Translations under genes and position numbers: made by a program
Part shown: positions 752 to 23,370 of the stretch, piece after piece
Layout: each line of letters opens with the position of its first letter
Position numbering within the stretch: position 1 is the first letter of the stretch
The notes under the pieces: model-generated
The model's input: only the letters and a program-made list of their open reading frames with translations
What the model was told of the DNA's origin: nothing
Database searches by the model: none
Source: Propionibacteriaceae bacterium
Lineage (GTDB): Bacteria > Actinomycetota > Actinomycetes > Propionibacteriales > Propionibacteriaceae
Length of the DNA: 24,000 nt
Assembly: GCA_030539405.1 (NCBI GenBank)
Contig: JAUNSA010000015.1
Location: 395 to 24,394 of the forward strand
Direction: 5' to 3'

Positions 752-770
752 ATCTCCCTAGCACGCGGAC

Positions 771-799
771 GCCGCCCTCACCCGTGAGTGCAGGGCGGC
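771..799 (-). promoter_or_regulatory. GC-rich stem-loop 20-48 nt upstream of the gyrB start
   Basis: GCCGCCCT(771-778) pairs with AGGGCGGC(792-799), and the inner CAC/GTG pairs extend the stem to 11 bp with one bulge and a 6-nt loop. No U-tract follows on either strand. Confidence 0.35.
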
Positions 800-917
800 G
801 ACCCTTGAACTCGTTCATCCTACTAGGAAGGCCCCCAAAACCACGCCTCTGTGAGCCGTGTGTGGCCACCAACGGCCTTCTGTGACGGTGTGGAGCCACG
901 TCACCCCCCAAATCCGA

Positions 918-939
918 CCCCCGGTATGCGCCCCGGGGG
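918..939 (-). terminator. candidate weak terminator hairpin downstream of the membrane-protein gene
   Basis: CCCCCGG(918-924) and CCGGGGG(933-939) form a 7-bp stem with an 8-nt loop. On the minus strand it is followed by TCGGATTTGG, which is only a short U-run, and it lies ~175 nt past the stop at 1114. Confidence 0.25.
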
Positions 940-1113
940 TTCGTGGACGCCCAGCGCGCACTGGGCCTCGTCCGGTGACGGTGGACGGCCTGGCGTAACC
1001 GCCCGGCACCACCCCTAACGAACATCCGCCGACTGCCCGGTAGTGGTCGCGGCCCGGGGTGGGCGCCTCCCGGGGCCTCGACCAGTACGGAGACGGTGGG
1101 CCGACACCAAGGC

Positions 1114-1725
1114 TCAGCCCTGCGCGGTCTCCCGCTGCGGCGCCTGCGGGGCCTGGCGGTGCGGGTTCCACCCGGGGCCGGCGACCTTGTCGGCGGCTGC
1201 CCCCGAGATGACCACCATCACCGCGGTCATGACACAGCCGTAGGCGAAGATGCCCACGACCCAGGGCCAGCTCAGCACGGGGGCGCCGGCCTGCACGATG
1301 CCGGGGTTGTTGAAGATGAGCAGCACCATCAGCATCTGGAGGAAGCCGACCAACACCGCGGGCACCACGGCGAACGGGGTGCGGCCGAGCAGCAGCGGGT
1401 GCACGGCGAGGATCAGGAAGATCACGAGCGTGACCCCGACCCCCAGCACCATGGGCGTCGACGCCGGGTTCGCGCCGATCATCGGGCCGGCCACGAGGTT
1501 GAACAGGAAGCCCCACACCGTGCCGGCGAGGAAGCTGAGGAACAGCGCGACCAGCCCGCCCAGCGGCATGCGCAGGGCGAAGAACAGCGGGATCGGCAGG
1601 ATCGCGAAGGGCGTGTAGGGCGCCATCTGGGGGAAGGCCGCCTGCACGGGCAGCAGCAACAAGGTGATGATCACGGCGCCGAGGATCGCCTCGACCAGCG
1701 TGCCCTTCACGAGCTTGGGGGACAT
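1114..1725 (-). CDS. uncharacterised polytopic integral membrane protein (~203 aa, about 5-6 hydrophobic segments)
   Basis: ORF 1114..1797, trimmed to ATG 1725 (MSPKLVKGTLVEAILGAVIITLLLL..), which is preceded by AAGGAG 5 nt upstream. The protein is strongly hydrophobic throughout and I recognise no family motif. It is divergent from the TetR gene. Confidence 0.75.
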   Translation of the reverse strand: MSPKLVKGTLVEAILGAVIITLLLLPVQAAFPQMAPYTPFAILPIPLFFALRMPLGGLVALFLSFLAGTVWGFLFNLVAGPMIGANPASTPMVLGVGVTLVIFLILAVHPLLLGRTPFAVVPAVLVGFLQMLMVLLIFNNPGIVQAGAPVLSWPWVVGIFAYGCVMTAVMVVISGAAADKVAGPGWNPHRQAPQAPQRETAQG

Positions 1726-1751
1726 GGGTTCTCCTTGGGAGTCGTCATCAT

Positions 1752-1841
1752 TGACGGTAAGTAGCGTCACTGCACACGGTAGAAACTCACGCGACACTAT
1801 GTCAAGAGTCTGACCATGGTGAGGTTTCTCTGTTGTATGTT
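1752..1841. promoter_or_regulatory. divergent promoter/operator region between the membrane-protein gene and tetR
   Basis: Minus strand: TTGACA (1805-1800), 18 nt, then TACCGT (1781-1776). A 14/18 dyad TGACGGTAAGTAGCGTCA (1752-1769) lies just downstream of that -10. The motif cGACActaTGTCA (1792-1804) overlaps the -35. Plus strand: TATGTT (1836-1841) ends 6 nt before ATG 1848, which would allow a leaderless tetR transcript. Confidence 0.5.
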
Positions 1842-1847
1842 CGGGGC

Positions 1848-2468
1848 ATGGCCAGCCTGAGGGACGCGCAGAAGCGCATGACGCGGGAGCTGTTGCTCGA
1901 CAACGGCCTGGAGCTGTTCACCCAGAAGGGGTACAACGCGACCACGATCGAGGACATCGCGGGCGCAGCCGGCACCACCCGCACCACCTTCTACCTGCAC
2001 TTCGCGTCGAAGAGCGAGCTACTGGCCCAGTTGCTCGAGCGCATCGCAGGCCAGGTGACAGACGCCGACGAGCACAAGCTCGAGGACTGCGTCGCCAGCG
2101 GCGACATCACCAAGATCAGGGGCTGGCTGAACCGCAACTTCGACAACTGGGACACCCTGCGCCCCTACCTGCTGCCCGCCTACGAGGCAGCGCCCTCAGA
2201 CCCCGTGATCCACGCGTCCCTGATCACCTGGTTCGAGGACACCATCTCGGCCATGCACCGCGGCCTCGACCGGGCCGACCGCTACGCCGAGGACGACCGG
2301 CGCGCGCGCTGCGTCATGGCGTTCGGCCAGTTCGAGTACACCGCCCACCGCTACTTCAGCCTGGGCTGGCGGACGCCCCGGGACGCCGTCCTGCGCAACA
2401 TGACCGACTCGTGGGCGTACTTGCTCACCGACCGGGGGCTGGCAGGTCCCGCCGCGGCGGACGCGTGA
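1848..2468 (+). CDS. TetR/AcrR-family transcriptional regulator
   Basis: The N-terminal HTH region TRELLLDNGLELFTQKGYNATTIEDIAGAAGTTRTTFYLHFASKSELL is typical of TetR_N. Start taken as ATG 1848. The alternative is TTG 1833, with GAGG 8 nt upstream, as in the track. Confidence 0.88.
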   Translation: MASLRDAQKRMTRELLLDNGLELFTQKGYNATTIEDIAGAAGTTRTTFYLHFASKSELLAQLLERIAGQVTDADEHKLEDCVASGDITKIRGWLNRNFDNWDTLRPYLLPAYEAAPSDPVIHASLITWFEDTISAMHRGLDRADRYAEDDRRARCVMAFGQFEYTAHRYFSLGWRTPRDAVLRNMTDSWAYLLTDRGLAGPAAADA

Positions 2469-3618
2469 GCACGGGTAACACGGCCCCGACCAGGGCGATA
2501 CCACCCAGCACGCTGAACGCCACCACGTAACCCCCGACCCCACCGGCCAACCACGCCCCCAGCAGCGGCCCGACCACCCCGGCCAGGCTCCAGCCGACGA
2601 GCATCAGGCCGTAGATCGCGCCCGCGTGGGCGACCCCGAAGAAGGTCCCGGCCGTGGACGGCATCACCCCAAACGCGCCGCCGTAGCAGAGGTAGACCAG
2701 CGCAGCCAGGGCCAGGAAGGTGAGGCCCGAGGTGTGCGGCAGGGCGATCAGCGCGAGCCCCTCCAGCACCAGGATCGTGGCGAGCACCCGCAACCTCCCC
2801 ACCTTCTGCGCCAGCGACGCCCAGACCACCCGGCCCGCACCGTTGAACAGGGCGAGGACGCCCACCGCGGCAGCCGCACCCGCGGCGTCCAGACCACCGA
2901 CGTCGGCAGCAGCACCGGCCATCATCGAGATCAGGGCGATCCCGGCCAGCACCGCGACGGTCAGCGTGGCGGTGAGCAGGTACCACTGCGGGGTGCGCAA
3001 CGCCTGCGCCACGGTGAAGTCGGACGCCGCGGCCGTGCGGTCACCCTCCTGCCGCGGCGGGCTGACCAGGAGCGCGGCCCCGATGAGGCCCAGGACGAGG
3101 TAGGCCAGGCCGAGGGGTCGGAAGGCGAGGGCGGGGGCGTCCGGGTTCTGTGCGATGAAGAACTGCGCTGCGGGCGAGGTGAGGGTGGCACCAAATCCGA
3201 ACCCCCCGACCGCGAGCCCGGTGACGATCGCGGTGTGCCGCGGGAACCACTTCTGCAGCAGCGCCACCGGCACGATGTAGGCCATGCCCAGCCCGAACCC
3301 CCCGACCACGCCGTAACCGAGCACGAGCAGCCACAGCAGGTCGGGCGTGGTCGCCAACGAGGCGAGCAGCACACCGGCACCGTAGAGGGCGACGCCCACC
3401 AGGGCGACGAACCGCGGCGAGCGACGATCCTGCAGGCGTCCACCCACGAACGCCCCGATGAAGATCATGCCGATGGCCACCTCGAACGGGATCGCCGCCT
3501 CGACCGCGCTCAGCCCCGGCTGGAGGGCACGCCCGAACAGACTCCAGGCGTACACGCCGCCGATCACGACCTGCACGACCACCCCGCCCACCAGGGCAGC
3601 CCACCGCGCATGCGTCAT
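2425..3618 (-). CDS. MFS transporter, oxalate/formate antiporter (OFA)-like family
   Basis: 397 aa with about 12 hydrophobic segments. The N-terminal GGVYAWSLF motif is characteristic of OFA/YhjX-type MFS proteins. Last gene of the minus-strand operon. Its 3' end overlaps the tetR 3' end by 44 bp. Confidence 0.85.
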   Translation of the reverse strand: MTHARWAALVGGVVVQVVIGGVYAWSLFGRALQPGLSAVEAAIPFEVAIGMIFIGAFVGGRLQDRRSPRFVALVGVALYGAGVLLASLATTPDLLWLLVLGYGVVGGFGLGMAYIVPVALLQKWFPRHTAIVTGLAVGGFGFGATLTSPAAQFFIAQNPDAPALAFRPLGLAYLVLGLIGAALLVSPPRQEGDRTAAASDFTVAQALRTPQWYLLTATLTVAVLAGIALISMMAGAAADVGGLDAAGAAAAVGVLALFNGAGRVVWASLAQKVGRLRVLATILVLEGLALIALPHTSGLTFLALAALVYLCYGGAFGVMPSTAGTFFGVAHAGAIYGLMLVGWSLAGVVGPLLGAWLAGGVGGYVVAFSVLGGIALVGAVLPVLTRPPRRDLPAPGR

Positions 3619-3636
3619 GGGGTCATCTTGGCAGGG

Positions 3637-5355
3637 CTACCCCGTGGTGTACGGCAGGACGATCCGGCTGGGGTGCTCGGCGTCCCGGTAGATCGTGTGG
3701 GTGACGGGGCGACCGACGGGCAGGTGGAAGGAGTCCGGCGGCAGCAGTGCGTTGTGCTCGTCGGCCAGGGGCTCGTTGTTGGAGAGCTCCAGGACGAGCT
3801 TGTGTCCGGGCAGGAACGCGTTCGCGAACGGGTAGAGCCGGATGACGTACTCGTTCACCTCCCCCGGCGTCACCGGCACCGCACGGGTGTGCGGGTGCAC
3901 GGGGCTGCCCTCGGTCGTCCGTTCGAGGTCGAGCTCGCGGTGCGACGCCTTCAGGTAGCCGGTGGTGATGAGCTGCCGCTTGCCGTTGGGGGCGGCGTCC
4001 CACAGCCGGAGGATGAAGTTGGTGTCCTCGGCGTCGATCGCGGCGAAGATGTGCGCCGCACCGGTGCCCATCATCTCGACCTTCTCGGTGAACGGCGCGG
4101 TCTCCCAGCTCAGGATCTCGACCTTGTCGGTCACCGTCAGCGGCGCCTGGAAGAAGCCGTCCGGGGCGGCGTACTCGGGCCCCATCAGCTCGGGCTCGGC
4201 CGACAGCTTGCGACGCGGGCGCAGGTACAGCGGACGGTACTCGGTCGGCTTCGGCGGCCACTCCTCGGCGGTCACATACTCGCGCGAGCCCTCGACGAAC
4301 ACGGTCACCGCCGACTCCTCGTCGACGCCGTTGTCGATGCCCTTGAGATACTTGTCGTACCAGCGGAACATCTTGTCGTGCTCCTCGATGAACGGGCGGC
4401 TCTGCATCGGCGGGTACGGCCCGAGGTCGAGCTTCTTCGGGCCGGTCACGGCGTTGAAGACCTCGATGGTGCCGTCCAGGGTCCAGCCGCGGCCGTGGTC
4501 GAGCTGCAGCCACACCGGGATGTCGATGTTGCCGGCAAGCTCGTTGGGGTTCCGCTCGGTGTACCAGGGGCCGTCGAGCTCGTTGGTGATGATGTCGAAC
4601 CACGGCTCGTGGTTCTTCGGGTAGTGCAGGACGTGCACCATGTTCGGCCACGCGGCGATGTCGGGGTCGGCCAGCCGGGCCTCGACCCGAGCGCGCACCT
4701 CGTCGGCCGACAGCTCGGAGAGCATCCGCGACTTCACGCCGTCGGTGAACGCCCAGCCCGAGTCGCCGCCTCGTCCCTCGCGCGCGGCGCGCGGCATGAG
4801 CCACATGATGCCGCCGTGGTAGGTGGTCTCGTAGAAGTCGTAGTGCCCGCCCGAGACGAAGATCGCCTTGAGCGACGGCGGGCGCTCGGCCGCCGCGATC
4901 ACCTGCATCGAGCCGAAGTAGCTGATGCCGATCATGCCGACGTTGCCGTCGCACCACGGCTGCGCGGCGACCCACTCGATGAAGTCGTAGGCGTCCTCGC
5001 CCAGCGACACGCCCCCGGCGTTGTAGTTGCCGATGTGCTCACCGTCGGAGTGACCGGTGCCGCGCAGGTCGCCGATGACGTGCACGTAGTCCTCGGCGAC
5101 GACGCGGGCGATGTCGCCGGCCTCGATGCAGCCGTCCCACATCGGGGAGGGACGCCGCTGCGGCGGCATGGTCAGCGCCAGCGCCTGGAGCTCCTTGCCG
5201 TAGGGGCTGAGCGCCACCAACGCCGGGCGCGGCTTCTCGTCAGTGCCCTCGTAGGCGTCGGCGACCAGCTCCACGCCGTCGCGCATCGGCACGCGCAGGT
5301 CCTTACGGATACGGATCGTCTGCCCGCCCGCGTCCCAGGTCCGGATGTCAGCCAT
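3637..5355 (-). CDS. CocE/NonD-family (S15, X-Pro dipeptidyl-peptidase-like) serine hydrolase
   Basis: 572 aa. Contains DLRGTGHSDG and the nucleophile elbow GISYFGS (GxSYxG), and has the long C-terminal domain typical of the family. Confidence 0.88.
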   Translation of the reverse strand: MADIRTWDAGGQTIRIRKDLRVPMRDGVELVADAYEGTDEKPRPALVALSPYGKELQALALTMPPQRRPSPMWDGCIEAGDIARVVAEDYVHVIGDLRGTGHSDGEHIGNYNAGGVSLGEDAYDFIEWVAAQPWCDGNVGMIGISYFGSMQVIAAAERPPSLKAIFVSGGHYDFYETTYHGGIMWLMPRAAREGRGGDSGWAFTDGVKSRMLSELSADEVRARVEARLADPDIAAWPNMVHVLHYPKNHEPWFDIITNELDGPWYTERNPNELAGNIDIPVWLQLDHGRGWTLDGTIEVFNAVTGPKKLDLGPYPPMQSRPFIEEHDKMFRWYDKYLKGIDNGVDEESAVTVFVEGSREYVTAEEWPPKPTEYRPLYLRPRRKLSAEPELMGPEYAAPDGFFQAPLTVTDKVEILSWETAPFTEKVEMMGTGAAHIFAAIDAEDTNFILRLWDAAPNGKRQLITTGYLKASHRELDLERTTEGSPVHPHTRAVPVTPGEVNEYVIRLYPFANAFLPGHKLVLELSNNEPLADEHNALLPPDSFHLPVGRPVTHTIYRDAEHPSRIVLPYTTG

Positions 5356-6274
5356 CGTTGCTCCTTCTCAGGTGTCCGTGCAGGGTCGTGAAGAACGACC
5401 ACGGTTCGTGCGTGGGGTCGCCCGCGTAACCGAGTTCGGACGCCGCCGCCTCGAACGGCGAGTACGGCGAGGCCGTCTCCCGGACGCCGTCAGCCGCGGT
5501 CTGCTCCCACACGGCCGCGATGCGGTCGGCGACCGCGATGCTCTCGGCCAGGGCGCGAGCGGCGTCCTCCACGACGACGCCGGGGGACTCGCCGGTCGTC
5601 CAGCGGTAGGGGTGACCGAGGTAGAGCCGCTGTGGCCGCACCTCGTCGCGCAGGCGGACCAGGCTCGCCCGGTAGTCGACCGGGTCGTCGTAGCCGGGGA
5701 TGCCGGAGGCCGCCCCGTTCAGCATCACCGTGTCGCCGGTGAACAGGTCACCCTGGCCGACCACTTCGTAGGCGACCGACCCGGCGGTGTGACCGGGCAC
5801 GTGGTGCACCACGATCCGGACGCCGCCGCCCAGGTCGAGCTCTTCGCCGCCCTGCAGCAGCACAGTGGGCTCGACGCCCCCGGAGATGACGGTGTCGGCC
5901 TGCGCCTGCTGGTCTGCCTCCAGCGTGGGGGTCGGCGCGTACCGGGCACCGATCTCGAGGTTCTTGGCGATGATCCCCGCCGGGGAACGCAACAGGTCGG
6001 CGTCCGCGGTGTGGATGGCGACCTGGGCACGGCGTCCGGTCGCCTCCACCAGGGCGGCCGTCCCGCCGATGTGGTCGATGTGCCCGTGCGTGTGCAGGAT
6101 CCACCGGACGTCCTCGAGCCGGCGCCCGAGCGTGGCCAATGCCGGGGCCATGCCCTCGGCCGGCGAGCTCGCGATGCCGGTGTCGATGATCGCCGGCTCC
6201 GGCGCGTCGATGAAGTAGCTGTACAGCCCGAACCGACCCCACGGGGAGACGAGCGGATGGATCCCGACGGTCAC
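5348..6274 (-). CDS. MBL-fold metallo-hydrolase
   Basis: Carries the HTHGHIDHIGG motif (HxHxDH) and a later HHVPGHT motif. Track ORF 5348..6826 is trimmed to GTG 6274, which forms a GTGA overlap with the upstream MFS stop. The upstream extension overlaps the MFS gene in another frame. Confidence 0.85.
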   Translation of the reverse strand: MTVGIHPLVSPWGRFGLYSYFIDAPEPAIIDTGIASSPAEGMAPALATLGRRLEDVRWILHTHGHIDHIGGTAALVEATGRRAQVAIHTADADLLRSPAGIIAKNLEIGARYAPTPTLEADQQAQADTVISGGVEPTVLLQGGEELDLGGGVRIVVHHVPGHTAGSVAYEVVGQGDLFTGDTVMLNGAASGIPGYDDPVDYRASLVRLRDEVRPQRLYLGHPYRWTTGESPGVVVEDAARALAESIAVADRIAAVWEQTAADGVRETASPYSPFEAAASELGYAGDPTHEPWSFFTTLHGHLRRSNDG

Positions 6275-7611
6275 GACGCCGCCCGCTCCGGCGCAGGCGC
6301 CTGCGTGTTGGCGGTCAGGTTGCGGTTCAACGGCACGAACCAGAAGGCCAGCGCGGCGATCAGGCCGGGCAGGCCGAACCACACGAAGTTCATCGCGACG
6401 GGCAGGTTCATGGTGAGCAGGATGCCACCGAAGATCGGGCCGAAGATGGCCCCGATCCGGCCGACGGCCGAGGCGAGCCCGATCGCCGTGGAACGCATGA
6501 ACGGCGGGTAGTACTGCGCGACGAACGCATACGAGATGTTCTGCGCGCCGTTGGCGGTGGCGCCCGTGACGGCGACTAGGGCCAGCAGCAGGACCAGTCC
6601 GCTGCCGAATCCGAGCAGCGCCAGCGAGACCGCCGCGCCGATGTACATCGGCACCAGCACCTTCTTCACGCCCAGCTTGTCGGCGAGGCGTCCGAGGAAG
6701 AGGGTGCCGATGATCGCGCCGATGTTCTGGAAGATCGGGAAGTTGAGGCTCGAACCCAGGTCGTAGCCCGACCTCACCATCAGTTGCGGCAGCCACACGG
6801 TGAGGCCGTTCAGCATGAGCAGGCACATGAAGAACGCCACCCAGATCATGAGGGTGCCCAGGGCGCGGCCCTCGGTGAACAGTGCGGCGATGGGCGCCTT
6901 CTGCTGCTTGGCCTCGGGGGCGGGGAAGGTGACCTCGGACGCCGTGACCGGGCGTCCGGCCAGATCACTCAGGACGCCCAGGGCAGCATCCTGACCGCGC
7001 CGGTGCGCCAGCACCGACGGCGAGTCGGGGAAGTAGCGGCCCATGAAGGGCACGAACAGCAACGGGATCGCGGCGACCCAGTAGGCGGCCTGCCAGCCCA
7101 GCGTCGGAATCATCGCCATGGCCACCAGCGCCGCGAGGATGCCGCCGACGTGGAAGAAGCTCATCACGATCGCGACGTAGCTGTTCGCCCGCCCCTTGGG
7201 TGCGTAGTCGGTCAGCGTCGCGATGACCGTGGGCAGGATGCCGCCGATCCCGAGACCGGCGAGGAACCGGAAGATCGAGAACACCGTCGGATTGGGCGCG
7301 AACCCACACAGTGCGGTGGCCGCACTGAACAACACCACGGCGGTGAGCAGGACCCGCTTGCGGCCGAACCGGTCGGCGAGCATGCCGAAGCCGACAGCTC
7401 CCAGCATCATGCCGAAGAAGCCGTAGCTGCCGATGGCTCCGGCCTCGACGGGGGTGATGCCCCACTGCTCGATGAGCACCGGGAGGACCGACCCGTAGAT
7501 CACGAGGTCGTACATGTCGAAGGTGATGATGAAGCAGGTCCAGAACAGCATCCAGAAGTGGAAGCGGTTGAACCTGGCCTCCTCGATGAATTCGCGCACG
7601 GTCGTGGTCAT
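6271..7611 (-). CDS. MFS transporter, aromatic-acid:H+ symporter (AAHS)-like
   Basis: 446 aa with 12 predicted TM segments. The N-terminus (FHFWMLFWTCFIITFDMYDLVIYGSVLP) and the GMLADRFGRKRVL loop resemble PcaK/BenK/MhpT-type transporters. Confidence 0.85.
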   Translation of the reverse strand: MTTTVREFIEEARFNRFHFWMLFWTCFIITFDMYDLVIYGSVLPVLIEQWGITPVEAGAIGSYGFFGMMLGAVGFGMLADRFGRKRVLLTAVVLFSAATALCGFAPNPTVFSIFRFLAGLGIGGILPTVIATLTDYAPKGRANSYVAIVMSFFHVGGILAALVAMAMIPTLGWQAAYWVAAIPLLFVPFMGRYFPDSPSVLAHRRGQDAALGVLSDLAGRPVTASEVTFPAPEAKQQKAPIAALFTEGRALGTLMIWVAFFMCLLMLNGLTVWLPQLMVRSGYDLGSSLNFPIFQNIGAIIGTLFLGRLADKLGVKKVLVPMYIGAAVSLALLGFGSGLVLLLALVAVTGATANGAQNISYAFVAQYYPPFMRSTAIGLASAVGRIGAIFGPIFGGILLTMNLPVAMNFVWFGLPGLIAALAFWFVPLNRNLTANTQAPAPERAAS

Positions 7612-7635
7612 GGGTCGGTCTCCAGGGTCGGGGTG

Positions 7636-8517
7636 TCAGCGGTTGAGGAACGCGGCGGTCTGGTCGAACACCCGGGCGAAGTCGCCGATCCAACCGAAGT
7701 TGGCCACGAAGCCGTGGTTGGCGCCTTCGTAGCGGGTGTGGGTGACCGGGACGCCGGCCTCGGCCAGGCGTCGGGCATACAGCTCGCCCTCGTCGCGGAG
7801 CGGGTCGTGCTCGGCGGTGACGACCAGCGCCGGGGGCAGCCCGGTCAGGTCGGCGCGCTTGATCGGGGAGACCCGTGGGTCGTCCGGGTCGGCACCCGAG
7901 TCGAGGTAGAACGCGTTGAACGGCGCCAGCCCTGCGGTCTCCAGGCCGTACCCGGTCGCCTCGGTGCGCAACGACTCGTAACGCGTGGTGTCGAAGTCGA
8001 GGTCGAGGCTCGGGTAGTACAGGACCTGATGGGTCACGGCGTCCAACCCCTCATCGGCCGCACGGGCCGCGAGCGCGGCAACGAACGTACCCCCGGACGA
8101 GTCGCCGGCCAGGGCGACCGGGCCGCCCTGCCCGGCGGCCCACCTGACCACCGTCCAGCAGTCGTCGAGTCCGGCCGGGAAGGTGTGCTCGGGCGCGAGC
8201 CGGTAGTCCACCGACACGACGGTCCAGTCGGTGGCGTTGGCCAGGGCGCGTGCCACGTGGTCGTGGGTGTCGAGGCTGCCGAGGAAGAACGCTCCGCCGT
8301 GGAAGTAGACGAGCGTGCCGTCACTGACGGCGTCCGAGCGGTAGACCCGCACGGGAACGCCGTCGACGTCGGCGTCCTCGACGGACGCCACGGGGATGCG
8401 GTCGGCGGGCGCGGGGACCTGCGCGGCCTCTCCGGCCCGCATGGCGACCGGGTCGAGCGGGCCCGGCGGCGGTGCCGGCAGGGAGGCCAGCACCTCCGCG
8501 ATCTGTGGGTGGATCAC
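7636..8517 (-). CDS. alpha/beta hydrolase fold-3 esterase/lipase (hormone-sensitive-lipase family)
   Basis: Has an HGGAF oxyanion motif, a GDSSGG nucleophile elbow, and DPLRDEG plus a C-terminal HGF for the triad. Track ORF 7636..9366 is trimmed to GTG 8517, which forms a GTGA overlap with the upstream stop. Confidence 0.85.
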   Translation of the reverse strand: MIHPQIAEVLASLPAPPPGPLDPVAMRAGEAAQVPAPADRIPVASVEDADVDGVPVRVYRSDAVSDGTLVYFHGGAFFLGSLDTHDHVARALANATDWTVVSVDYRLAPEHTFPAGLDDCWTVVRWAAGQGGPVALAGDSSGGTFVAALAARAADEGLDAVTHQVLYYPSLDLDFDTTRYESLRTEATGYGLETAGLAPFNAFYLDSGADPDDPRVSPIKRADLTGLPPALVVTAEHDPLRDEGELYARRLAEAGVPVTHTRYEGANHGFVANFGWIGDFARVFDQTAAFLNR

Positions 8518-9644
8518 TCGTCGACACCGACCTTCTCGCCGGGGCGCTTCTGGCCGGGGAAGACGTCGTTGACCTCGTCCTCGCTCCAGCCCTGGCGCGA
8601 GATGCGCTGCAGCTCGTCGGTGATCGGCTTGCGCTCGGCGGCGTAGGCGGCCACGGCCTCCTTGACGGTGTCGTTGTCCTTCAGCGCCTGGGCGAGCGCC
8701 CCGGCATCGAGGATCGCCGAGTTGGCGCCCTGGCCCTGGTGGTGGCACATGGCGTGGGCGGCGTCGCCGAGGAGCACGACGGAGTCGGAGTGCCAGACGT
8801 CGACCGGGTCGATGTCGTAGACGGCGCGGATGTTGACCTTGTCCATGTCCAGGTCCTGCACGAGCTTCACGATGCGCTCGTCGAAGCCCTCGACGGTGGC
8901 GAGCAGGTCCTCCTTGGTGCGGACCGGGTTGCGCGTCGGGTCGGTGTTGAGCGCGGTGACGTCGAAGCTCATCTGGTTGCGGTGGCGCAGCGGCAGGACG
9001 TACACCTTGGTGCCGCGGCCCAGGTACATGCGCAGGTTGTCGTCGGTGACCAGGCCGTGCGCGGCGTCGGCGTCCACGACCACACGGTAGGCGTGCTCGC
9101 CGGCGAAGACGGGCTGCTGGTCGCTGAACAACTGCGCCCGGACGGTGGAACGGATGCCATCGGCACCCACGACCAGGTCGGCCTCGACGGTCTCGCCGTC
9201 GGCGAAGGTCAGCGTGGCGGTGCCGCCGTTGTCGACGATCTTCTCCAGCTTCTTGTTGGTCTTCACCATGCCCTCGGGCAGCGAGCCGACCAGCGCCTGG
9301 ATGAAGTCGTTGCGGTGGACGAGGTGGGTGTGGGTCTTGGTCTCGTAGTCGTCCATGCCCGGCCACTGGTCCTTGGCGATGGTGTGGCCCTCAGCGGTGA
9401 GGATCTCGAAGTAGTTGGACGCCGAGGTGACATCGGCGATCGCGTCGAAGATGCCCCACTGGCGGAACTGGTCCATCGACGAGGGGCGCAGGCCGATGCC
9501 GGCGCCGACCTCCCTGATCTCCTTGGCCTGCTCGTAGACGGTGACCTGGGCACCCAGGTTGGACAGGGCCTTGGCCGCGGAGGCGCCGCCGTAGCCGCCG
9601 CCGACGATGGCGACGCGCAGGTTCTTCAGCTGGTCAGTGTTCAT
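8514..9644 (-). CDS. FAD-dependent aromatic-ring monooxygenase (class A, salicylate/3-hydroxybenzoate hydroxylase-like)
   Basis: Contains VAIVGGGYGGASAA (GxGxxG), VGADGIRSTVR (DG motif) and LLGDAAHAMCHHQGQGAN (GD motif). Start is ATG 9644, preceded by AAGGAAGAG. The longer track ORF overlaps the PTE gene. Confidence 0.88.
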   Translation of the reverse strand: MNTDQLKNLRVAIVGGGYGGASAAKALSNLGAQVTVYEQAKEIREVGAGIGLRPSSMDQFRQWGIFDAIADVTSASNYFEILTAEGHTIAKDQWPGMDDYETKTHTHLVHRNDFIQALVGSLPEGMVKTNKKLEKIVDNGGTATLTFADGETVEADLVVGADGIRSTVRAQLFSDQQPVFAGEHAYRVVVDADAAHGLVTDDNLRMYLGRGTKVYVLPLRHRNQMSFDVTALNTDPTRNPVRTKEDLLATVEGFDERIVKLVQDLDMDKVNIRAVYDIDPVDVWHSDSVVLLGDAAHAMCHHQGQGANSAILDAGALAQALKDNDTVKEAVAAYAAERKPITDELQRISRQGWSEDEVNDVFPGQKRPGEKVGVDE

Positions 9645-9681
9645 GGTGTTGTCTCTTCCTTGAGGCGTTGGTTGCAGGAGG

Positions 9682-10638
9682 TCAGGTGATCGGCTGGACG
9701 GTGTAGAACTCGGCGGGGCGGGTGACGAAGAGGCGGGTGATCTCGGCATCGTCGATGCCGGCCTCGCGCAGGTCGGGGATGAGCTCCTCGAACAGGTAGT
9801 TGACGGTGTGGCCCTTGACGCCGGGCCAGCCCAGGGGTGAGCAGTTGGCGTCGACGCCGGCCAGCACCTGGTCGGGGTACTCGGCGTGGAACTGCCGGAA
9901 GTGGGCGAGCCGCTCGGCGCGCTTGCGACCCCAGAACGGCGGGTCGGGAAGCTCCAGGTCGTAGCCGAACGTGTCGAACCCGACGATGCCGCCTTGGGCG
10001 GCGATCCACGCGTGGTTGGTCTTGTCGTGGTTCACCCCGTCGTCGGCGTGGCCGAAGATCACGCGGTCCAGGGGCATCCTCTCGTCGTGGAAGATCTCCA
10101 CGGCCGGCTCGGCGTCGATAGCCAGGTGGGTCACGATCGGGACGCCGGTGGCGCGGGCTGCGCGCCCGGCCGCGCGGTAGATGCGCTTGTCGAGCTCGGT
10201 CATCCTGCCCCCGCGGCTGACGCCGACCTTGATCACGCCGGCCTTGGCGCCGGTGGTGCCGATGCCCTCGGTGATCTCGTGGACGAAGACGTCGGCGAGG
10301 TACTCCACCGACGCGGTGGCGAAGTGCTTCAGGGCGGTGTCGCCACCGACGAAGCCGGTGCACGCGATGATGTGCACGCCGGTCTTGGCCGACAGCACTT
10401 GGTAGTAGTCGACGTCGCGACCGTTGCAGATGCCGGTCATGTCGACGAACGTGCGACCGCCGTACGCGTGGAACTGGCGCAGTTGCGCCATCGTCTCGTC
10501 GACGCGGGCCTCGAACGGCTTCCACCACTTGGTGTCCAGCTCGCTGCCGGGCATGCCGTAGCCGACGTGCTCGTGGATGGCGACGTAGCCGAGCTCCTCG
10601 GGCGCGACGGGGCCCAGCACGGTGTTGACGTGTGCCAT
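9682..10638 (-). CDS. phosphotriesterase (PTE) family hydrolase, apparently intact binuclear metal site (PTE-like lactonase/PHP type)
   Basis: 318 aa. Metal ligands seen: IHEHV (HxH), GVIKVG (candidate carbamylated Lys), VTHLA, FGHAD and GVDAN. A GAAGGAGG SD lies inside the 3' end of the upstream gene, 8 nt before the ATG. Confidence 0.88.
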   Translation of the reverse strand: MAHVNTVLGPVAPEELGYVAIHEHVGYGMPGSELDTKWWKPFEARVDETMAQLRQFHAYGGRTFVDMTGICNGRDVDYYQVLSAKTGVHIIACTGFVGGDTALKHFATASVEYLADVFVHEITEGIGTTGAKAGVIKVGVSRGGRMTELDKRIYRAAGRAARATGVPIVTHLAIDAEPAVEIFHDERMPLDRVIFGHADDGVNHDKTNHAWIAAQGGIVGFDTFGYDLELPDPPFWGRKRAERLAHFRQFHAEYPDQVLAGVDANCSPLGWPGVKGHTVNYLFEELIPDLREAGIDDAEITRLFVTRPAEFYTVQPIT

Positions 10639-10641
10639 GTC

Positions 10642-11637
10642 TCAGGCCTCCTTCTGGATGGTCAGCCAGGTGGCCGGGTTGGTGGTCGTCAGGGCGGTGG
10701 TGTCGGCGTCCGACAAGCCGCGGGCGGCCAACAGCGGGACGAACGACGTGAGCACGTGCTCGAACGCGGTGCCGGGGCGGGGCAGCCCCTTGGCGACGCC
10801 GATGGCGCCGCTGGCCACCAAGACGCGGTCGCGGTGACCCGCCTGCACGAGCTCGACGACCAGGTCGGCCCGTTCGTCGTCGGAGAGGAGGTCGTCGGAC
10901 GCGGTCCCCACCTGGGTGAGCCCCACCAGGGCGCCCTTCTCGGCGACGGCGACGGCCGCACCCGCGGCGTCCTTGCTGTCGAGGCCGACCACGAGCACGC
11001 GGGCCGGGTCGACCTCCTCGGCGAGGACGAGGTCGAGCTCGGCCACCGCGTCGGCGCCATAGCGGAACGCCATGGGCGCGCCGGTGGCGGCAGCCGTCCG
11101 GGCGGCACCGCGCAGCAGCGACTCGTCGGTGCCGGTGAGCCCACCGGTCGTGCCGGCGGTGACCACGAGGCCCGCGGCCGCGCGGCGCTCGATGCGGGGG
11201 ACGACCATGCCTTGGCTCACCTCGGCGGTGAACAGCTCGGCGAACCGGTCGGCCGGCCACGGCGTCGGCGGGTTGGTCTGGGGAGTCTTGAAGTAGCCAC
11301 CCAGGTTCTCTTCGGGGCCCATGCCGGTCGAGGCGACGATGTGGACGCCGGTGGCCTTCGACACGGCCTCGAGCAACGGCAGGTTGCGCCCGTGGAACAT
11401 GCCCGAGGCGTCCACCACCGTGCCGCCGCCGGCGGCCTTGAAGGCGTTCAGTTGGGCGACGAGTTCTGTCACGACCTCGGCGCGGTCGATCGTGATGTCA
11501 GGCGCGTGCTCGGCACCGGGAACCACGCTGAGCAGGGCCTCGTGCGCCGCCACCACGCCGAGCTCGTCGGCCGGGACCGGGCCGAGCACGGTGTTGACGG
11601 TGCGCCCGGAGTCACCGGGGGACGTCGTTGTCGTCAT
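10642..11637 (-). CDS. PTE-family paralog with degenerate metal-binding site (probable non-catalytic or neofunctionalised)
   Basis: Aligns by eye with the neighbouring PTE (VNTVLGPV, TGVHIVASTG). However HEH is replaced by HEA, the Lys by Thr (VVTAG), a His by Arg (AFRYG), a His by Leu (VGLDS) and the Asp by Gly (ASGAI). Start trimmed to ATG 11637, with GAAAGG 5 nt upstream. Confidence 0.8.
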   Translation of the reverse strand: MTTTTSPGDSGRTVNTVLGPVPADELGVVAAHEALLSVVPGAEHAPDITIDRAEVVTELVAQLNAFKAAGGGTVVDASGMFHGRNLPLLEAVSKATGVHIVASTGMGPEENLGGYFKTPQTNPPTPWPADRFAELFTAEVSQGMVVPRIERRAAAGLVVTAGTTGGLTGTDESLLRGAARTAAATGAPMAFRYGADAVAELDLVLAEEVDPARVLVVGLDSKDAAGAAVAVAEKGALVGLTQVGTASDDLLSDDERADLVVELVQAGHRDRVLVASGAIGVAKGLPRPGTAFEHVLTSFVPLLAARGLSDADTTALTTTNPATWLTIQKEA

Positions 11638-11658
11638 GGGAACCTTTCGTGGCTTCAC

Positions 11659-11706
11659 TGACACTGTGTCATTCAAATATACGTAGCGTCACCGACGCGG
11701 TGTCAA
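11659..11706 (-). promoter_or_regulatory. promoter/operator of the hydrolase operon
   Basis: Minus strand: a perfect TTGACA (11706-11701) and an A/T-rich TATATT (11681-11676, 19-nt spacing). A perfect 13-bp palindrome TGACACTGTGTCA (11659-11671) lies just downstream of the -10 and 22 nt upstream of the ATG. A related cGACgcggTGTCA (11693-11705) overlaps the -35. Confidence 0.5.
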
Positions 11707-11848
11707 GGGGTTGTCGCGAGTCGCCTGAGCTTGGGGATGGGAATGGAGGCTGCGCCGGCCAGGGCCTGGCCCGACTCGAGGGTGCAGGCGGCGCTGACCG
11801 CGCTGGCCCGCCACGTGAAGTCGTTCCTGCCTGAGCCCACCAGGAGGC

Positions 11849-12418
11849 TCAGCCGTAGGTGTCGCGCGGTCCGCGCCCCTTCACGGTGCGCGGGCCGTGC
11901 CGCCAACTCGGGGCCTCGGGGCCGAGGATGCGCACGGCCTTGACGCTGCCGTCCCCCAGCGAGGCGTTCATCTTCGCCACGATCTGGGGGGCCATCAGCC
12001 GCAGTTGTGCGGCCCAGTTCGTCGAGGTCGTGCGCACCACCACGACCCGATCCACGTACGCCTCCGGCGTGGAGTGCTGCGCCACGGCGTCCCCGACGAG
12101 GTCGGGCCAGCGACCCAGCAGCAGGTGCACGCTCACCTGCCGGCCCCAGCCGCGGTTCTCGATGACGCTCTCCAGCGCCTCGCCCAGGGCGGTCGGCTCG
12201 CCGCGTTCCTGGCCGGACGCCGGACGCCGCGGCCCGGTCTTCTTCCGCGGGGACGGCTTCCGCACCGGCGGCGTGGCCCGCCCTGCGGCGGCCGCGATCT
12301 GGCGCGCCAGGTCCAGCCCGGTGGGGTCGAACGGGATCTCCTCGGACGCCCCTTGGGCTGCCGGCTCAACAGGGTCCGGGGCGTCGGCGTCCGGGGTGGT
12401 CGGGTCACTCATCGTCAT
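11849..12418 (-). CDS. dciA: DUF721/DciA-like protein
   Basis: 189 aa. The conserved C-terminal half (WPDLVGDAVAQHSTPEAYVDRVVVVRTTSTNWAAQLRLMAPQIVAKMN) and the position immediately after recF match actinobacterial DUF721 (Rv0004-type). Overlaps the recF stop. Confidence 0.85.
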   Translation of the reverse strand: MTMSDPTTPDADAPDPVEPAAQGASEEIPFDPTGLDLARQIAAAAGRATPPVRKPSPRKKTGPRRPASGQERGEPTALGEALESVIENRGWGRQVSVHLLLGRWPDLVGDAVAQHSTPEAYVDRVVVVRTTSTNWAAQLRLMAPQIVAKMNASLGDGSVKAVRILGPEAPSWRHGPRTVKGRGPRDTYG

Positions 12419-13580: not shown

Positions 13581-13581
13581 C

Positions 13582-16515: not shown

Positions 16516-16541
16516 GGATTCACTCCTCCGATGATGCTGAG

Positions 16542-23368: not shown

Positions 23369-23370
23369 GA

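What the first reader, a model, noticed from the sequence alone, without database searches (positions are those of the whole stretch)
1105..11854. A ~10.7 kb accessory block splits the conserved dnaA-dnaN-recF-dciA | gyrB origin synteny
In Actinomycetota the DUF721/dciA gene is normally followed directly by gyrB. Here ten non-core genes sit between the dciA stop (11849) and the gyrB start (751): a membrane protein, TetR, two MFS transporters, five hydrolase-superfamily proteins and an FAD monooxygenase. The 8-gene operon is co-oriented with the flanking core genes and with the leftward replication fork from the presumed oriC about 3 kb away, so it would have the highest gene dosage in the chromosome. 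I see no integrase, transposase, tRNA or obvious shift in GC or codon usage, so this is not a classical mobile island. An insertion into one of the most conserved gene strings in bacteria is unusual and probably lineage-specific.
Basis: partly seen in the sequence, partly recalled or inferred. Interest (0 to 1): 0.7.

Follow-up and report, generated by a model that had tools for sequence, protein, structure and literature searches.

The report
Accessory catabolic operon beside replication origin
Ten accessory genes, centred on a widely shared enzyme operon of unknown substrate, do sit between dciA and gyrB next to the replication origin, but in this bacterial family that junction is a routine swap site for accessory genes, so this is an ordinary gene-exchange hotspot.

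Summary
Ten non-core genes lie between the dciA stop (11849) and gyrB. They include a tight 8-gene minus-strand operon. There is no integrase, transposase, tRNA, flanking repeat or composition shift.

1. The window is a Propionibacteriaceae MAG. In that family the dciA|gyrB junction is usually split: 14 of 18 species representatives, against 1 of 56 other Actinomycetota.
2. Within the window's own genus-level clade (DnaN+RecF 87-92% identical) the site has four states. These are this block, a lanthipeptide cluster, a kinase plus hydrolase pair, or (in the sister lineage) nothing. All four keep the same ~205-nt gyrB leader.
3. The block is not unique to this genome. Three related lineages carry it at the same junction, with an extra CYP199 P450-lysR-ferredoxin-reductase module. 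The window keeps ~95 nt of the P450 gene and the last codons of the reductase gene, so it lost that module by deletion.
4. The six-enzyme core keeps its gene order in Streptomyces, on a Caballeronia plasmid and in 55 metagenome contigs. None of those copies lies near an origin.

Best reading: a TetR-controlled, horizontally spread catabolic cluster parked in an integrase-free hotspot. It is a new member of a known kind, of modest interest.

The parts
2..751 (-). gyrB, N-terminal part (runs off the window). The start is GTG 742 or GTG 751.
   Evidence: HATPase_c domain. 87-91% identical to GyrB of L087 and L081. Alignment with the called starts of relatives favours 742.
752..956 (-). Conserved gyrB leader/promoter region. 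It is the fixed right-hand boundary of the variable site. It contains a conserved stem-loop (768-802) and a CCTAGTAGGATG motif (816-827).
   Evidence: Aligns with L087 (empty site), L081 (block) and L094 (other cargo). Homology starts near 956. No Rfam family matches.
1114..1725 (-). Membrane protein of 203 aa with about 5-6 hydrophobic segments and no Pfam family. It travels with the block in this clade.
   Evidence: No Pfam or NCBIfam hit. Hydropathy scan. 63% identical homologue in L081 between tetR and gyrB.
1726..1847 (.). Divergent promoter region between the membrane-protein gene and tetR. It holds an operator-like half-palindrome, CGACACTATGTCA, at 1792-1804.
1848..2468 (+). TetR-family regulator. 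It is the only block gene on the plus strand, and its 3' end overlaps the 3' end of MFS1.
   Evidence: TetR_N E=1.5e-16. 77% identical homologue in L081 directly after S15. TetR genes accompany the cluster in Caballeronia and in many metagenome loci.
2425..3618 (-). MFS transporter 1, last gene of the operon. It is absent from the other copies of the cluster that were examined.
   Evidence: MFS_1. NCBIfam SfMCT L-lactate MFS transporter 323.9 bits against a cutoff of 320. No hit in L081, L086 or L100.
3637..5355 (-). CocE/NonD (peptidase S15) family serine hydrolase with a GISYFG nucleophile motif.
   Evidence: Peptidase_S15 plus PepX_C. TIGR00976, 224 bits. Homologues 80-87% identical across Actinomycetota and in Acidovorax. 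Only about 118 bits to cocaine esterase structures.
5348..6274 (-). MBL-fold metallo-hydrolase with an HGHIDH motif. This is a mosaic allele shared with L089 only.
   Evidence: Lactamase_B. Motif. 78% identical to L089 but 61-64% to L081, L083 and L086, which are 72-86% alike among themselves.
6271..7611 (-). MFS transporter 2, of the aromatic acid/H+ symporter type, inserted between the esterase and the MBL gene.
   Evidence: TIGR00895, 322 bits; MhpT and PcaK relatives. 93% identical in L089. The same position is occupied in L107, L116 and L144.
7636..8517 (-). Abhydrolase_3 (hormone-sensitive-lipase type) esterase with HGG and GDSSG motifs.
   Evidence: PF07859 E=1e-67. LipP1 family, 271 bits, below cutoff. 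Motifs.
8514..9644 (-). Group A FAD-dependent monooxygenase.
   Evidence: FAD_binding_3. Nearest solved relatives are tropone 2-monooxygenase, 6-hydroxynicotinate 3-monooxygenase and salicylate/vanillate decarboxylative hydroxylases, E 1e-39 to 1e-30.
9682..10638 (-). PTE1: phosphotriesterase-family (amidohydrolase-fold) enzyme with all six binuclear-metal ligands.
   Evidence: PF02126 E=2e-47. H22, H24, K137, H171, H197 and D263 are conserved in all orthologues. 92-94% identical within the clade.
10642..11637 (-). PTE2: phosphotriesterase-fold paralogue lacking five of six metal ligands, so a probable non-catalytic partner. First gene of the operon.
   Evidence: PF02126 E=4.6e-33. Ligand substitutions are visible in the alignment to PTE structures and in all orthologues that cover those positions.
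11638..11758 (-). Operon promoter region plus a remnant of the ferredoxin-reductase 3' end. Features: TTGACA-19-TATATT, the perfect palindrome TGACACAGTGTCA (minus-strand reading; + strand TGACACTGTGTCA) at 11659-11671, and a second operator-like site at 11693-11705.
   Evidence: 84% identical over 104 nt to L089 8756-8859, which is the fdR end plus the PTE2 promoter. The remnant translates to ...IPIPKLRRLA, as in FdR of L081 and L089. Palindrome hits: 5 found against 1.0 expected, three of them in the two block promoters. The motif recurs upstream of PTE2 in L081, L089 and L092.
11759..11838 (+). Remnant of a CYP199-family P450 gene, about 95 nt in total including its stop codon. It is a pseudogene scar of a ~3.4 kb deletion.
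   Evidence: 91% identical over 80 nt to an internal part of the L089 P450 gene. It translates to VQAALTALARHVKSF, matching the P450 C-terminal regions of L089 and L081. The intact P450 of L089 scores 263 bits to a CYP199 structure.
11849..12418 (-). dciA. Its stop codon is the fixed left-hand boundary of the variable site.
   Evidence: PF05258 E=4e-21. Homology with L081 and L089 ends at the stop codon. 100% match to a protein named 'MAG: DciA family protein [Propionibacteriaceae bacterium]'.
12405..16563 (-). recF, dnaN and dnaA, with DnaA-box clusters in the dnaA-dnaN spacer (14782-15123) and upstream of dnaA.

Best explanation
The ~10.9 kb segment 957-11848 is the current cargo of an integrase-free gene-exchange hotspot. 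In Propionibacteriaceae this hotspot sits exactly between the dciA stop codon and the conserved gyrB leader.

**What the cargo is.** It is a partly decayed copy of a widely distributed, horizontally spread catabolic cluster. The full form of that cluster is tetR, a CYP199-type P450 with ferredoxin and reductase, an inactive/active pair of phosphotriesterase-fold proteins, an FAD monooxygenase, an esterase, an MBL-fold hydrolase and a CocE/NonD hydrolase, with or without MFS transporters.

**History (shown by sequence).** An ancestor of the window, L081, L089 and L091 carried the cluster at this junction. The window's lineage then deleted about 3.4 kb holding P450-lysR-fdx-fdR. It also carries a variant MFS2-MBL segment, shared with L089, and an extra MFS gene.

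**How the operon works (inferred).**
- The eight-gene operon is transcribed from its own promoter, 150-210 nt downstream of dciA.
- It is repressed by the adjacent TetR at palindromic sites that overlap the promoter.
- It is induced by its substrate.
- The MFS transporters import an aromatic carboxylic acid derivative carrying ester, lactone or amide bonds.
- The hydrolases and the flavin monooxygenase then dismantle that compound.

**How the site turns over (inferred).** Cargo changes by homologous recombination in the highly conserved flanking genes (dnaN-recF-dciA on one side, gyrB-gyrA on the other) after DNA uptake from relatives, plus local deletions. Site-specific integration is not involved.
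For: **Hotspot.**
- Four states of the site occur in lineages whose DnaN+RecF are 80-92% identical. These are the block (window, L081, L089/90, L091-93), a two-component system plus lanthipeptide genes (L088), Kinase-PPPase plus a 555-aa hydrolase (L094-96), and empty (L087).
- The boundaries are identical in all states that could be read.
- Family-wide, 14 of 18 junctions are split, against 1 of 56 elsewhere.
- There are no recombinase genes, tRNAs or repeats.

**Deletion.** blastn of the 241-nt spacer hits an internal P450 fragment (91% over 80 nt) that abuts the fdR 3' end plus promoter (84% over 104 nt).

**Widespread cluster.**
- The same gene order is found in Streptomyces prasinus away from the origin and in a MAG near clpP1P2.
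- It is on Caballeronia insecticola plasmid p2, with tetR-P450-fdx-fdR, at 48-72% amino-acid identity for the nine enzyme and electron-transfer genes (tetR 35%).
- It is in 55 metagenome contigs of GC 0.56-0.74, none with dciA, recF or gyrB nearby.
- Its S15 gene stands alone beside IS21 in Acidovorax at 80% identity.

**Regulation.** The palindrome is conserved upstream of PTE2 in four lineages, and a related site lies in the tetR divergent promoter.

**Substrate class.**
- The P450 belongs to the CYP199 family.
- MFS2 is of the aromatic-acid symporter type.
- The FAD monooxygenase is nearest to decarboxylative or aromatic hydroxylases.
- Catalytic motifs are intact in PTE1, MBL, the esterase and S15.

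**Concept.** MGE-free hotspots that turn over by recombination at flanking core genes are described in PMC5635113.
Against: - Recombination at the flanks was not measured. There are too few close genomes, and most are fragmentary metagenome contigs.
- The NJ tree of two proteins cannot tell one ancestral gain with two replacements from repeated gains.
- No member of the cluster is characterised, and literature searches found nothing.
- All enzymes score far below the cutoffs of named NCBIfam equivalogs, so the substrate is a guess.
- The window lacks the P450 module, so the substrate class inferred from CYP199 may not apply to this truncated version.
- The promoter's 19-nt spacing fails a strict sigma-70 scan.
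- TetR binding is untested.
- The window comes from a MAG. Independent assemblies with the same junction argue against misassembly.
Confidence: 0.72

Rival explanations
1. Ancestral synteny. The block, or some filling of the gap, is the ancestral state of the family. Adjacent dciA-gyrB in a few members would then reflect secondary loss, so nothing was 'inserted' in this lineage.
For: - Most Propionibacteriaceae, and half of the other Propionibacteriales sampled, have genes in the gap.
- A homologous Pfam-less membrane protein of about 450 aa follows dciA in seven species representatives, including Kribbella. Some filling may therefore be old.
- Within the window's clade the block is present in the earliest-branching member, L091.
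Against: - None of the 18 family representatives has any of this block's genes in its dciA-gyrB gap; the only homologue near an origin is a weak TetR N-terminal match upstream of recF (L012, L017).
- The fillings differ from genus to genus: a gluconate operon in L003, GH3/HAD in L002, SLAC1 in L039.
- The sister lineage L087 has a clean 230-bp junction whose sequence is the gyrB leader.
- The cluster occurs in non-origin contexts in other phyla.
Confidence: 0.1
2. Classical mobile island. The block arrived by site-specific integration (ICE, IME or phage-like), and the recombinase and att sites have since decayed or lie outside what was examined.
For: - The cluster is clearly mobile between genomes and phyla. 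It is plasmid-borne in Caballeronia, and one of its genes sits beside IS21 in Acidovorax.
- Insertion is precise, at an intergenic point.
- Decay is demonstrably ongoing, as the P450 scar shows.
Against: - No integrase, transposase or tRNA was found in the window or in the cargo of L081, L088, L089, L091 or L094.
- There are no flanking repeats.
- All intergenic space is accounted for.
- Three unrelated cargos use the same boundaries. This is easier to explain by flank recombination than by three elements sharing one att site.
- Composition is identical to the core genes.
Confidence: 0.1
3. Selected origin-proximal placement. The site is used because proximity to oriC, and co-orientation with the replication fork, give the cargo high dosage or couple it to the supercoiling-sensitive gyrB promoter. 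On this view the position itself is adaptive.
For: - The block lies 3-14 kb from the DnaA-box clusters.
- Nine of ten genes are co-oriented with the leftward fork.
- The gap is repeatedly occupied across the family.
Against: - The cargos are functionally unrelated: lanthipeptide, gluconate, hydrolases, membrane proteins.
- In L081/L089/L091, L088 and L094 the first cargo gene is convergent with dciA.
- The same cluster works from non-origin sites and from plasmids elsewhere.
- The operon has its own repressor-controlled promoter.
- The dosage effect depends on growth rate, which is unknown for this MAG.
Confidence: 0.08

Closest known systems
MGE-free horizontal-transfer hotspots flanked by core genes (Oliveira et al. 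2017, Nat Commun, PMC5635113)
   Same: - It is a single inter-core-gene spot.
- Close relatives carry different accessory cargo there.
- No integrase, transposase or tRNA is present.
- The boundaries are sharp and sit at conserved core sequence.
- Turnover includes deletions.
   Different: - The spot lies inside the origin-proximal dnaA-dnaN-recF-dciA-gyrB-gyrA string, which is otherwise nearly invariant in Actinomycetota.
- Elevated recombination in the flanks, the paper's key signature, was not measured here.
Canonical actinobacterial origin cluster dnaA-dnaN-recF-dciA(Rv0004)-gyrB-gyrA (e.g. Mycobacterium, PMC5720831; Streptomyces with gnd between dnaN and recF)
   Same: - dnaA, dnaN, recF and dciA are contiguous and co-oriented.
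- DnaA boxes lie in the dnaA-dnaN spacer.
- rpmH-rnpA-yidD-yidC-jag-rsmG-parA-parB lie on the other side.
   Different: dciA and gyrB are 11.1 kb apart here. In 55 of 56 non-Propionibacteriales loci the gap is 0.1-0.9 kb.
CYP199A-type para-substituted benzoate oxidation systems (CYP199A2/A4 with their ferredoxin and ferredoxin reductase)
   Same: Relatives of the window carry a CYP199-family P450 (263 bits to PDB 9g9q, about 228 bits to CYP199A4). A small ferredoxin and an FAD reductase lie directly upstream of the six-enzyme core.
   Different: - In the window only about 95 nt of the P450 gene and the last codons of the reductase gene remain.
- No CYP199 system is known to me to be linked to this hydrolase set, and no paper was found.
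Phosphotriesterase-like lactonases / PTE family (PF02126), e.g. P. diminuta PTE and related solved 'phosphotriesterase' structures
   Same: PTE1 has the full H-x-H, K, H, H, D binuclear-metal ligand set and aligns end to end with PTE structures.
   Different: - The match is only about 120 bits and far below every NCBIfam equivalog cutoff.
- PTE1 is always paired with a ligand-less paralogue, PTE2. I know of no described PTE or lactonase with this arrangement.
TetR-repressed catabolic or efflux operons
   Same: - A TetR gene is adjacent.
- A palindromic 6-1-6 site lies between the -10 element and the ribosome-binding site, and another overlaps the -35 element.
- A related site lies in its own divergent promoter.
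   Different: - The ligand and the binding are untested.
- The regulator sits 9 kb from the promoter it is proposed to control.

Membership tests
Classical integrase-mediated genomic island | Integrase, recombinase or transposase gene in or beside the island | tested here: not met
   All ten ORFs were assigned to other families or are membrane proteins, and no unassigned space remains. None was found in the cargo of relatives either.
Classical integrase-mediated genomic island | Insertion at a tRNA/tmRNA gene, or flanking direct repeats (att) | tested here: not met
   No tRNA. Only chance-level repeats.
Classical integrase-mediated genomic island | Composition or codon usage deviating from the core genes | tested here: not met
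   GC3 is 0.91-0.96 for eight correctly framed block genes (the membrane-protein gene was computed one base out of frame and reads about 0.99 by inference). It is 0.90-0.97 for the seven core genes other than parA/parB (0.80 and 0.77). RSCU r = 0.98, equal to the split-half controls.
Classical integrase-mediated genomic island | Presence or absence varying among close relatives | tested here: met
   Present in L081, L089/90 and L091-93. Absent in L087, L088 and L094-96.
MGE-free HGT hotspot (sensu PMC5635113) | Interval bounded by the same two core genes across the clade | tested here: met
   The dciA stop and the gyrB leader are the boundaries in every state.
MGE-free HGT hotspot (sensu PMC5635113) | Several different accessory gene sets in that interval among related genomes | tested here: met
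   Four states within one genus-level clade. Many more across 18 family representatives.
MGE-free HGT hotspot (sensu PMC5635113) | Excess homologous recombination or phylogenetic incongruence in the flanking core genes | not tested
   This needs many complete genomes of one species or genus. Only fragmentary contigs were available.
Conserved actinobacterial origin gene string | dnaA-dnaN-recF-dciA contiguous and co-oriented next to DnaA-box clusters | tested here: met
Conserved actinobacterial origin gene string | gyrB immediately downstream of dciA (gap under 1 kb) | tested here: not met
   The gap is 11.1 kb in the window. It is also not met in 14 of 18 Propionibacteriaceae representatives.
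Catalytically active PTE-family enzyme (PF02126) | Six binuclear-metal ligands (H, H, K/E, H, H, D) | tested here: met
   PTE1 (9682-10638): all six are present in the window and in five orthologues.
Catalytically active PTE-family enzyme (PF02126) | The same six ligands in the second copy | tested here: not met
   PTE2 (10642-11637): only the first His is kept. The other positions read A, V/T, R, G/D and G/N. The full-length orthologues show the same pattern; the truncated L083 copy lacks the first two positions.
CYP199-linked ten-gene cluster (as in Caballeronia p2, L081, L089) | Six-enzyme core in the order PTE2-PTE1-FADmo-esterase-MBL-S15 | tested here: met
CYP199-linked ten-gene cluster (as in Caballeronia p2, L081, L089) | Intact P450, ferredoxin and ferredoxin reductase genes | tested here: not met
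   Only scars remain at 11700-11838.
TetR-regulated operon | TetR_N helix-turn-helix regulator encoded adjacent to the operon | tested here: met
   PF00440 E=1.5e-16.
TetR-regulated operon | Regulator binds a palindromic operator in the target promoter and is released by a ligand | not testable with these tools
   A candidate operator was found and is conserved. Binding needs EMSA or footprinting.

The most novel reading that the evidence does not exclude
Two unexcluded readings go beyond 'ordinary hotspot'.

(a) The tetR-CYP199-fdx-fdR-PTE2/PTE1-FADmo-esterase-MBL-CocE/NonD cluster keeps its gene order from Actinomycetota to Burkholderiaceae. It includes an obligatory inactive/active phosphotriesterase-fold pair. 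It may encode an undescribed multi-step pathway for a common natural aromatic ester or lactone.

(b) In Propionibacteriales the dciA|gyrB junction may be a dedicated origin-proximal 'cargo bay'. Its use would then be favoured by selection, through dosage, co-orientation or coupling to the gyrB leader, rather than simply tolerated.
Probability: 0.2. Interest if true: 0.55.

Novelty: new member of a known kind. Interest (0 to 1): 0.3.

Why it matters
- **For genome scanning.** It shows that 'broken universal synteny' must be judged against the clade and not the phylum. The dciA-gyrB junction is nearly invariant in most Actinomycetota but is a routine swap site in Propionibacteriaceae.
- **For evolution.** It adds a clean, sequence-resolved example of an integrase-free hotspot. 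It has sharp boundaries, four alternative states, a datable internal deletion and a mosaic allele, and it lies within a few kb of oriC.
- **For enzymology.** It flags a conserved but uncharacterised cross-phylum cluster with a pseudo-enzyme/enzyme PTE pair. That cluster may be worth biochemical study.
- **Limits.** None of this changes current understanding of replication-origin organisation.

Tried and rejected
- **Exact look-ups.** Look-ups of window proteins in the contig index failed, so the source contig itself could not be fetched. Its identity rests on 100% protein matches named 'MAG ... Propionibacteriaceae bacterium', contig 29,662 bp.
- **Cluster-member look-up.** It gave no organism names for the metagenome relatives.
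- **Flanking repeats or att sites.** Only chance-level matches.
- **Rfam.** No family in the window, including the gyrB leader stem-loop.
- **Strict sigma-70 and terminator scans.** Nothing above the shuffle expectation. The proposed promoter has 19-nt spacing and is an inference.
- **DnaA boxes at one mismatch or fewer.** Not enriched window-wide: 5 found against 3 expected. Only the positional clustering at two mismatches or fewer is informative.
- **Literature.** No paper was found linking CocE/NonD, PTE, MBL and FAD monooxygenase genes, or CYP199 with PTE, or describing a dciA-gyrB hotspot ([malformed term], 33, 50, 51, 69, 70, 77, 78).
- **PDB searches.** No close characterised homologue for any of the six enzymes.
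- **Ideas considered and dropped.**
  - Quorum-quenching lactonase operon: PTE and MBL are only distant relatives of known AHL lactonases, and no acyl-chain genes are present.
  - Antibiotic-inactivation island: MBL, chloramphenicol-hydrolase-like and Tet(X)-like hits are all far below family cutoffs.
  - Vitamin B6 or nicotinate degradation: only the flavoenzyme resembles those pathways.
  - Misassembly: the same junction appears in six independent assemblies.
- **A flawed computation.** My GC3 value for the membrane-protein gene was computed one base out of frame. The correct frame (1725 to 1114) has GC3 of about 0.99.

Full report
**1. What is in the window**

The window has about 69% GC, so genes were placed using third-codon-position GC together with ORFs.

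Pfam and NCBIfam scans give the following on the minus strand: gyrB (N-terminal part, 2-751/742), then ten non-core genes, then dciA (11849-12418), recF, dnaN and dnaA (to 16563). On the plus strand come rpmH, rnpA, yidD, yidC, jag, rsmG, parA and parB. DnaA-box-like sites cluster only in the dnaA-dnaN spacer and upstream of dnaA. This is a chromosomal origin region, and the block lies 3-14 kb from oriC.

The ten genes, read from dciA towards gyrB, are:
- PTE2, 10642-11637
- PTE1, 9682-10638
- FAD monooxygenase, 8514-9644
- Abhydrolase_3 esterase, 7636-8517
- aromatic-acid-type MFS transporter, 6271-7611
- MBL-fold hydrolase, 5348-6274
- CocE/NonD S15 hydrolase, 3637-5355
- a second MFS transporter, 2425-3618
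- TetR on the opposite strand, 1848-2468
- a Pfam-less membrane protein, 1114-1725

The first eight are packed with gaps of -8 to +37 nt, and three junctions have overlapping stop and start codons. Several mobile-element signs are absent:
- No tRNA.
- No recombinase domain.
- No meaningful flanking repeat.
- No Rfam hit.
- No compositional difference from the core genes. GC3 is about 0.91-0.96 for the correctly framed block genes against 0.90-0.97 for the core genes other than parA/parB, and the RSCU correlation is 0.98, the same as the split-half controls.

**2. Whose genome, and what do relatives have at this junction?**

The S15 hydrolase and DciA match, at 100%, proteins named as coming from a Propionibacteriaceae MAG on a 29,662-bp contig.

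A RecF-based scan of one genome per species returned 80 origin regions. tblastn with the window's proteins showed two things.

- Nine of the ten block genes have no homologue in any of those 80 regions; the TetR alone gave two weak N-terminal matches (L012, L017), both upstream of recF and outside the gap.
- The dciA-gyrB gap depends strongly on the clade.
  - Among 56 loci outside Propionibacteriales, 55 have a gap of 0.1-0.9 kb.
  - In the Propionibacteriaceae clade, only 4 of 18 do. Nine have 1.5-6.5 kb and five do not reach gyrB within 4.4-9.5 kb.
  - Three of six other Propionibacteriales are also split.

The fillings differ between genera: a gluconate operon (gnd, gluconokinase, permease) in a Propionicimonas, a GH3 glycosidase and a HAD protein in L002, a SLAC1 channel in Nocardioides insulae, and a recurrent Pfam-less membrane protein in seven representatives.

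**3. The window's close relatives**

A DciA search and context look-ups gave a tight clade. DnaN+RecF are 87-92% identical among its members and 80% identical to the sister lineage L087, a Propioniciclava MAG. The junction has four states:

- **Empty.** L087 has a 230-bp gap that is simply the gyrB leader.
- **The hydrolase block preceded by P450(-), lysR(-), ferredoxin and ferredoxin reductase.** This is seen in L081, where the whole interval recF-dciA-...-gyrB-gyrA is visible. It is also seen in L089/L090 and L091-L093.
- **A two-component system plus a lanthipeptide cluster.** L088.
- **A Kinase-PPPase gene plus a 555-aa alpha/beta hydrolase.** L094-L096.

The left boundary is the dciA stop codon in every case. 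The right boundary is the start of a ~205-nt conserved gyrB leader, window 752-956. Six independent assemblies share the dciA-to-block junction, which rules out a chimeric contig.

**4. The window's copy is a decayed version**

The 241-nt stretch between the dciA stop and the PTE2 start is a composite.
- After about 20 nt comes the P450 stop codon with its last codons.
- Next come 80 nt that are 91% identical to an internal part of the L089 P450 gene. They translate to VQAALTALARHVKSF.
- These are fused directly to 104 nt that are 84% identical to the 3' end of the reductase gene (…IPIPKLRRLA…) plus the PTE2 promoter.

The window's lineage therefore once had the P450-lysR-fdx-fdR module and lost about 3.4 kb of it, plus about 75 nt more inside the P450 remnant.

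The block is also mosaic. The window and L089 share an MFS2-MBL segment whose MBL is 78% identical between them. That MBL is only 61-64% identical to the MBL of L081, L083 and Streptomyces, which are 72-86% alike among themselves. PTE1 (92-94%) and the monooxygenase (87-92%) show no such split.

**5. The cargo is a widespread, mobile cluster**

- **S15 hydrolase.** It has homologues 80-87% identical in Rhodococcus, Arthrobacter, Streptomyces, Georgenia, Corynebacterium and even Acidovorax. This is far above the 57-69% seen for RecF across the same span. In Acidovorax it stands alone with a TctC binding protein and a GntR regulator beside IS21. In Rhodococcus rhodochrous it stands beside an NRPS.
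- **Six-gene order PTE2-PTE1-FADmo-esterase-MBL-S15.**
  - It recurs in Streptomyces prasinus between gas-vesicle and protease genes.
  - It recurs in a MAG next to octopine-dehydrogenase-family and clpP1P2 genes.
  - On Caballeronia insecticola plasmid p2 it is preceded by tetR-P450-fdx-fdR and followed by transporters, at 48-72% amino-acid identity for the nine enzyme and electron-transfer genes (tetR 35%).
  - It is present in 55 metagenome contigs with GC 0.56-0.74, often with P450-fdx-fdR and tetR. None of these has dciA, recF or gyrB within 10 kb.

The origin-side location is thus peculiar to the window's clade, while the cluster itself is common.

**6. How it probably works**

*Regulation (inferred from sequence).* The operon has its own promoter-like element, TTGACA-19-TATATT. 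A perfect palindrome, TGACACAGTGTCA, lies between this element and the ribosome-binding site. A second related site overlaps the -35 element. A third lies in the divergent tetR/membrane-protein promoter. The pattern gives 5 hits in the window against 1.0 expected, and three of them are in these two promoters. The motif recurs upstream of PTE2 in L081, L089 and L092 and nowhere else in those loci. TetR repression relieved by a substrate is the natural reading.

*Chemistry (inferred).*
- The lost P450 belongs to the CYP199 family. From my own knowledge, characterised members of that family oxidise para-substituted benzoates.
- MFS2 is of the aromatic-acid/H+ symporter type.
- The flavoenzyme is nearest to decarboxylative or aromatic hydroxylases.
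- PTE1, the MBL, the esterase and S15 keep their catalytic motifs.
- PTE2 lacks five of six metal ligands in every orthologue that covers those positions and is translationally coupled to PTE1. This suggests a non-catalytic partner.

I therefore favour uptake and stepwise hydrolysis and oxidation of an aromatic acid derivative with ester, lactone or amide bonds. No member is characterised, every enzyme scores far below named-family cutoffs, and no paper was found. The substrate is open.

*Turnover of the site (inferred).* The evidence is the sharp common boundaries, unrelated cargos, absence of recombinases, and flanks that are among the most conserved genes of the genome. [quoted passage not shown] I could not measure recombination.

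**7. Rivals**

- **Ancestral synteny.** This is contradicted by the empty sister lineage, the absence of the block's genes from every dciA-gyrB gap in the rest of the family, and the cluster's non-origin contexts elsewhere.
- **Decayed integrative element.** This cannot be excluded, but it has no positive evidence. It would also need three unrelated cargos to share one att site.
- **Selected 'high-dosage bay'.** This is possible but unsupported. The cargos are functionally unrelated, the first cargo gene is convergent with dciA in the three cargo types read at that junction, and the cluster works from other positions in other genomes.

**8. Verdict**

The feature is real and was correctly described. 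It is accessory and restricted to one sub-lineage.

It is one more cargo in a family-typical, integrase-free hotspot, and the cargo is a truncated copy of a widespread orphan catabolic cluster. I classify it as a new member of a known kind, with interest 0.3.

The parts most worth a second look are the conserved cross-phylum cluster with its pseudo-PTE/PTE pair, and the fact that a hotspot has opened inside the otherwise near-invariant origin gene string of one order.

Noticed in passing
window 10642-11637 (PTE2) and 9682-10638 (PTE1); orthologues in L081, L083, L086, L089, L092: The first of the two adjacent phosphotriesterase-fold genes lacks five of the six binuclear-metal ligands in every full-length orthologue examined (the truncated L083 copy lacks the first two positions). 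The second keeps all six. The pair is separated by 3 nt and is conserved from Streptomyces to Caballeronia. This suggests an inactive/active heteromer.
   Followed up: partly
window 11700-11838: Two gene scars lie in the dciA-PTE2 spacer: about 95 nt of a CYP199-family P450 gene on the plus strand, and the last codons of a ferredoxin reductase gene on the minus strand. They mark a ~3.4 kb deletion relative to L089, L081 and L091.
   Followed up: yes
window 752-956, especially 768-802 and 816-827 (minus strand): The gyrB leader is conserved across lineages with different upstream cargo. It contains a GC-rich stem-loop (GGTCGCCGCCC...GGGCGGCGTCC) about 25-35 nt upstream of the start codon and an invariant CCTAGTAGGATG motif. 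No Rfam family matches.
   Followed up: partly
   Followed up: partly
L001 11688-13121, L007 11774-13141, L010 13462-14832, L014 11700-13205, L015 14646-16013, L019 12338-13657, L022 11879-13222: A homologous Pfam-less multi-pass membrane protein of about 440-500 aa lies within about 3 kb downstream of dciA (directly after it in five of the seven) in seven Propionibacteriales species representatives, including Kribbella. Small Pfam-less proteins often accompany it. It may be an older filling of the same gap.
   Followed up: partly
L088 3247-13256: In a close relative (RecF 82%), the gene directly abutting dciA is a histidine kinase. It is followed by a response regulator, an ABC transporter and LanB/LanC lanthipeptide genes, so a biosynthetic cluster occupies the same origin-proximal slot.
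   Followed up: no
L100 (Caballeronia insecticola plasmid p2, 124527-137194): A betaproteobacterial plasmid carries tetR-P450-fdx-fdR-PTE-PTE-FADmo-esterase-MBL-CocE/NonD-transporters in the same order. Identity to the actinobacterial proteins is 48-72% for the enzyme and electron-transfer genes and 35% for tetR. Three other Burkholderia replicons have the PTE and S15 genes at the same spacing.
   Followed up: partly
L097 (Acidovorax chromosome) 4002-11719: An 80%-identical S15 hydrolase stands alone with a TctC-family binding protein and a GntR regulator. It is next to an IS21-type transposase/IstB pair and a seryl-tRNA synthetase gene. This points to recent cross-phylum transfer of the single gene.
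   Followed up: no
window 5348-6274 versus L081, L083, L086: The MBL gene is mosaic. The window and L089 (the MFS2-containing versions) share one allele type. It is only 61-64% identical to the type in L081, L083 and Streptomyces, although the neighbouring genes are 82-94% identical.
   Followed up: partly
window 20197-22075: parA and parB have clearly lower third-position GC (0.80 and 0.77) than the eight other core genes analysed (0.90-0.97). The region 20000-22500 is the GC minimum of the window (0.62-0.66).
   Followed up: no
window 22260-24000 (minus strand): Beyond parB lie a DUF3817 membrane protein, a SURF1-family protein and a D-Ala-D-Ala ligase gene that runs off the window end. The longest SURF1 ORF overlaps the ddl 3' end by about 230 nt, so its real start is probably further downstream.
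   Followed up: no
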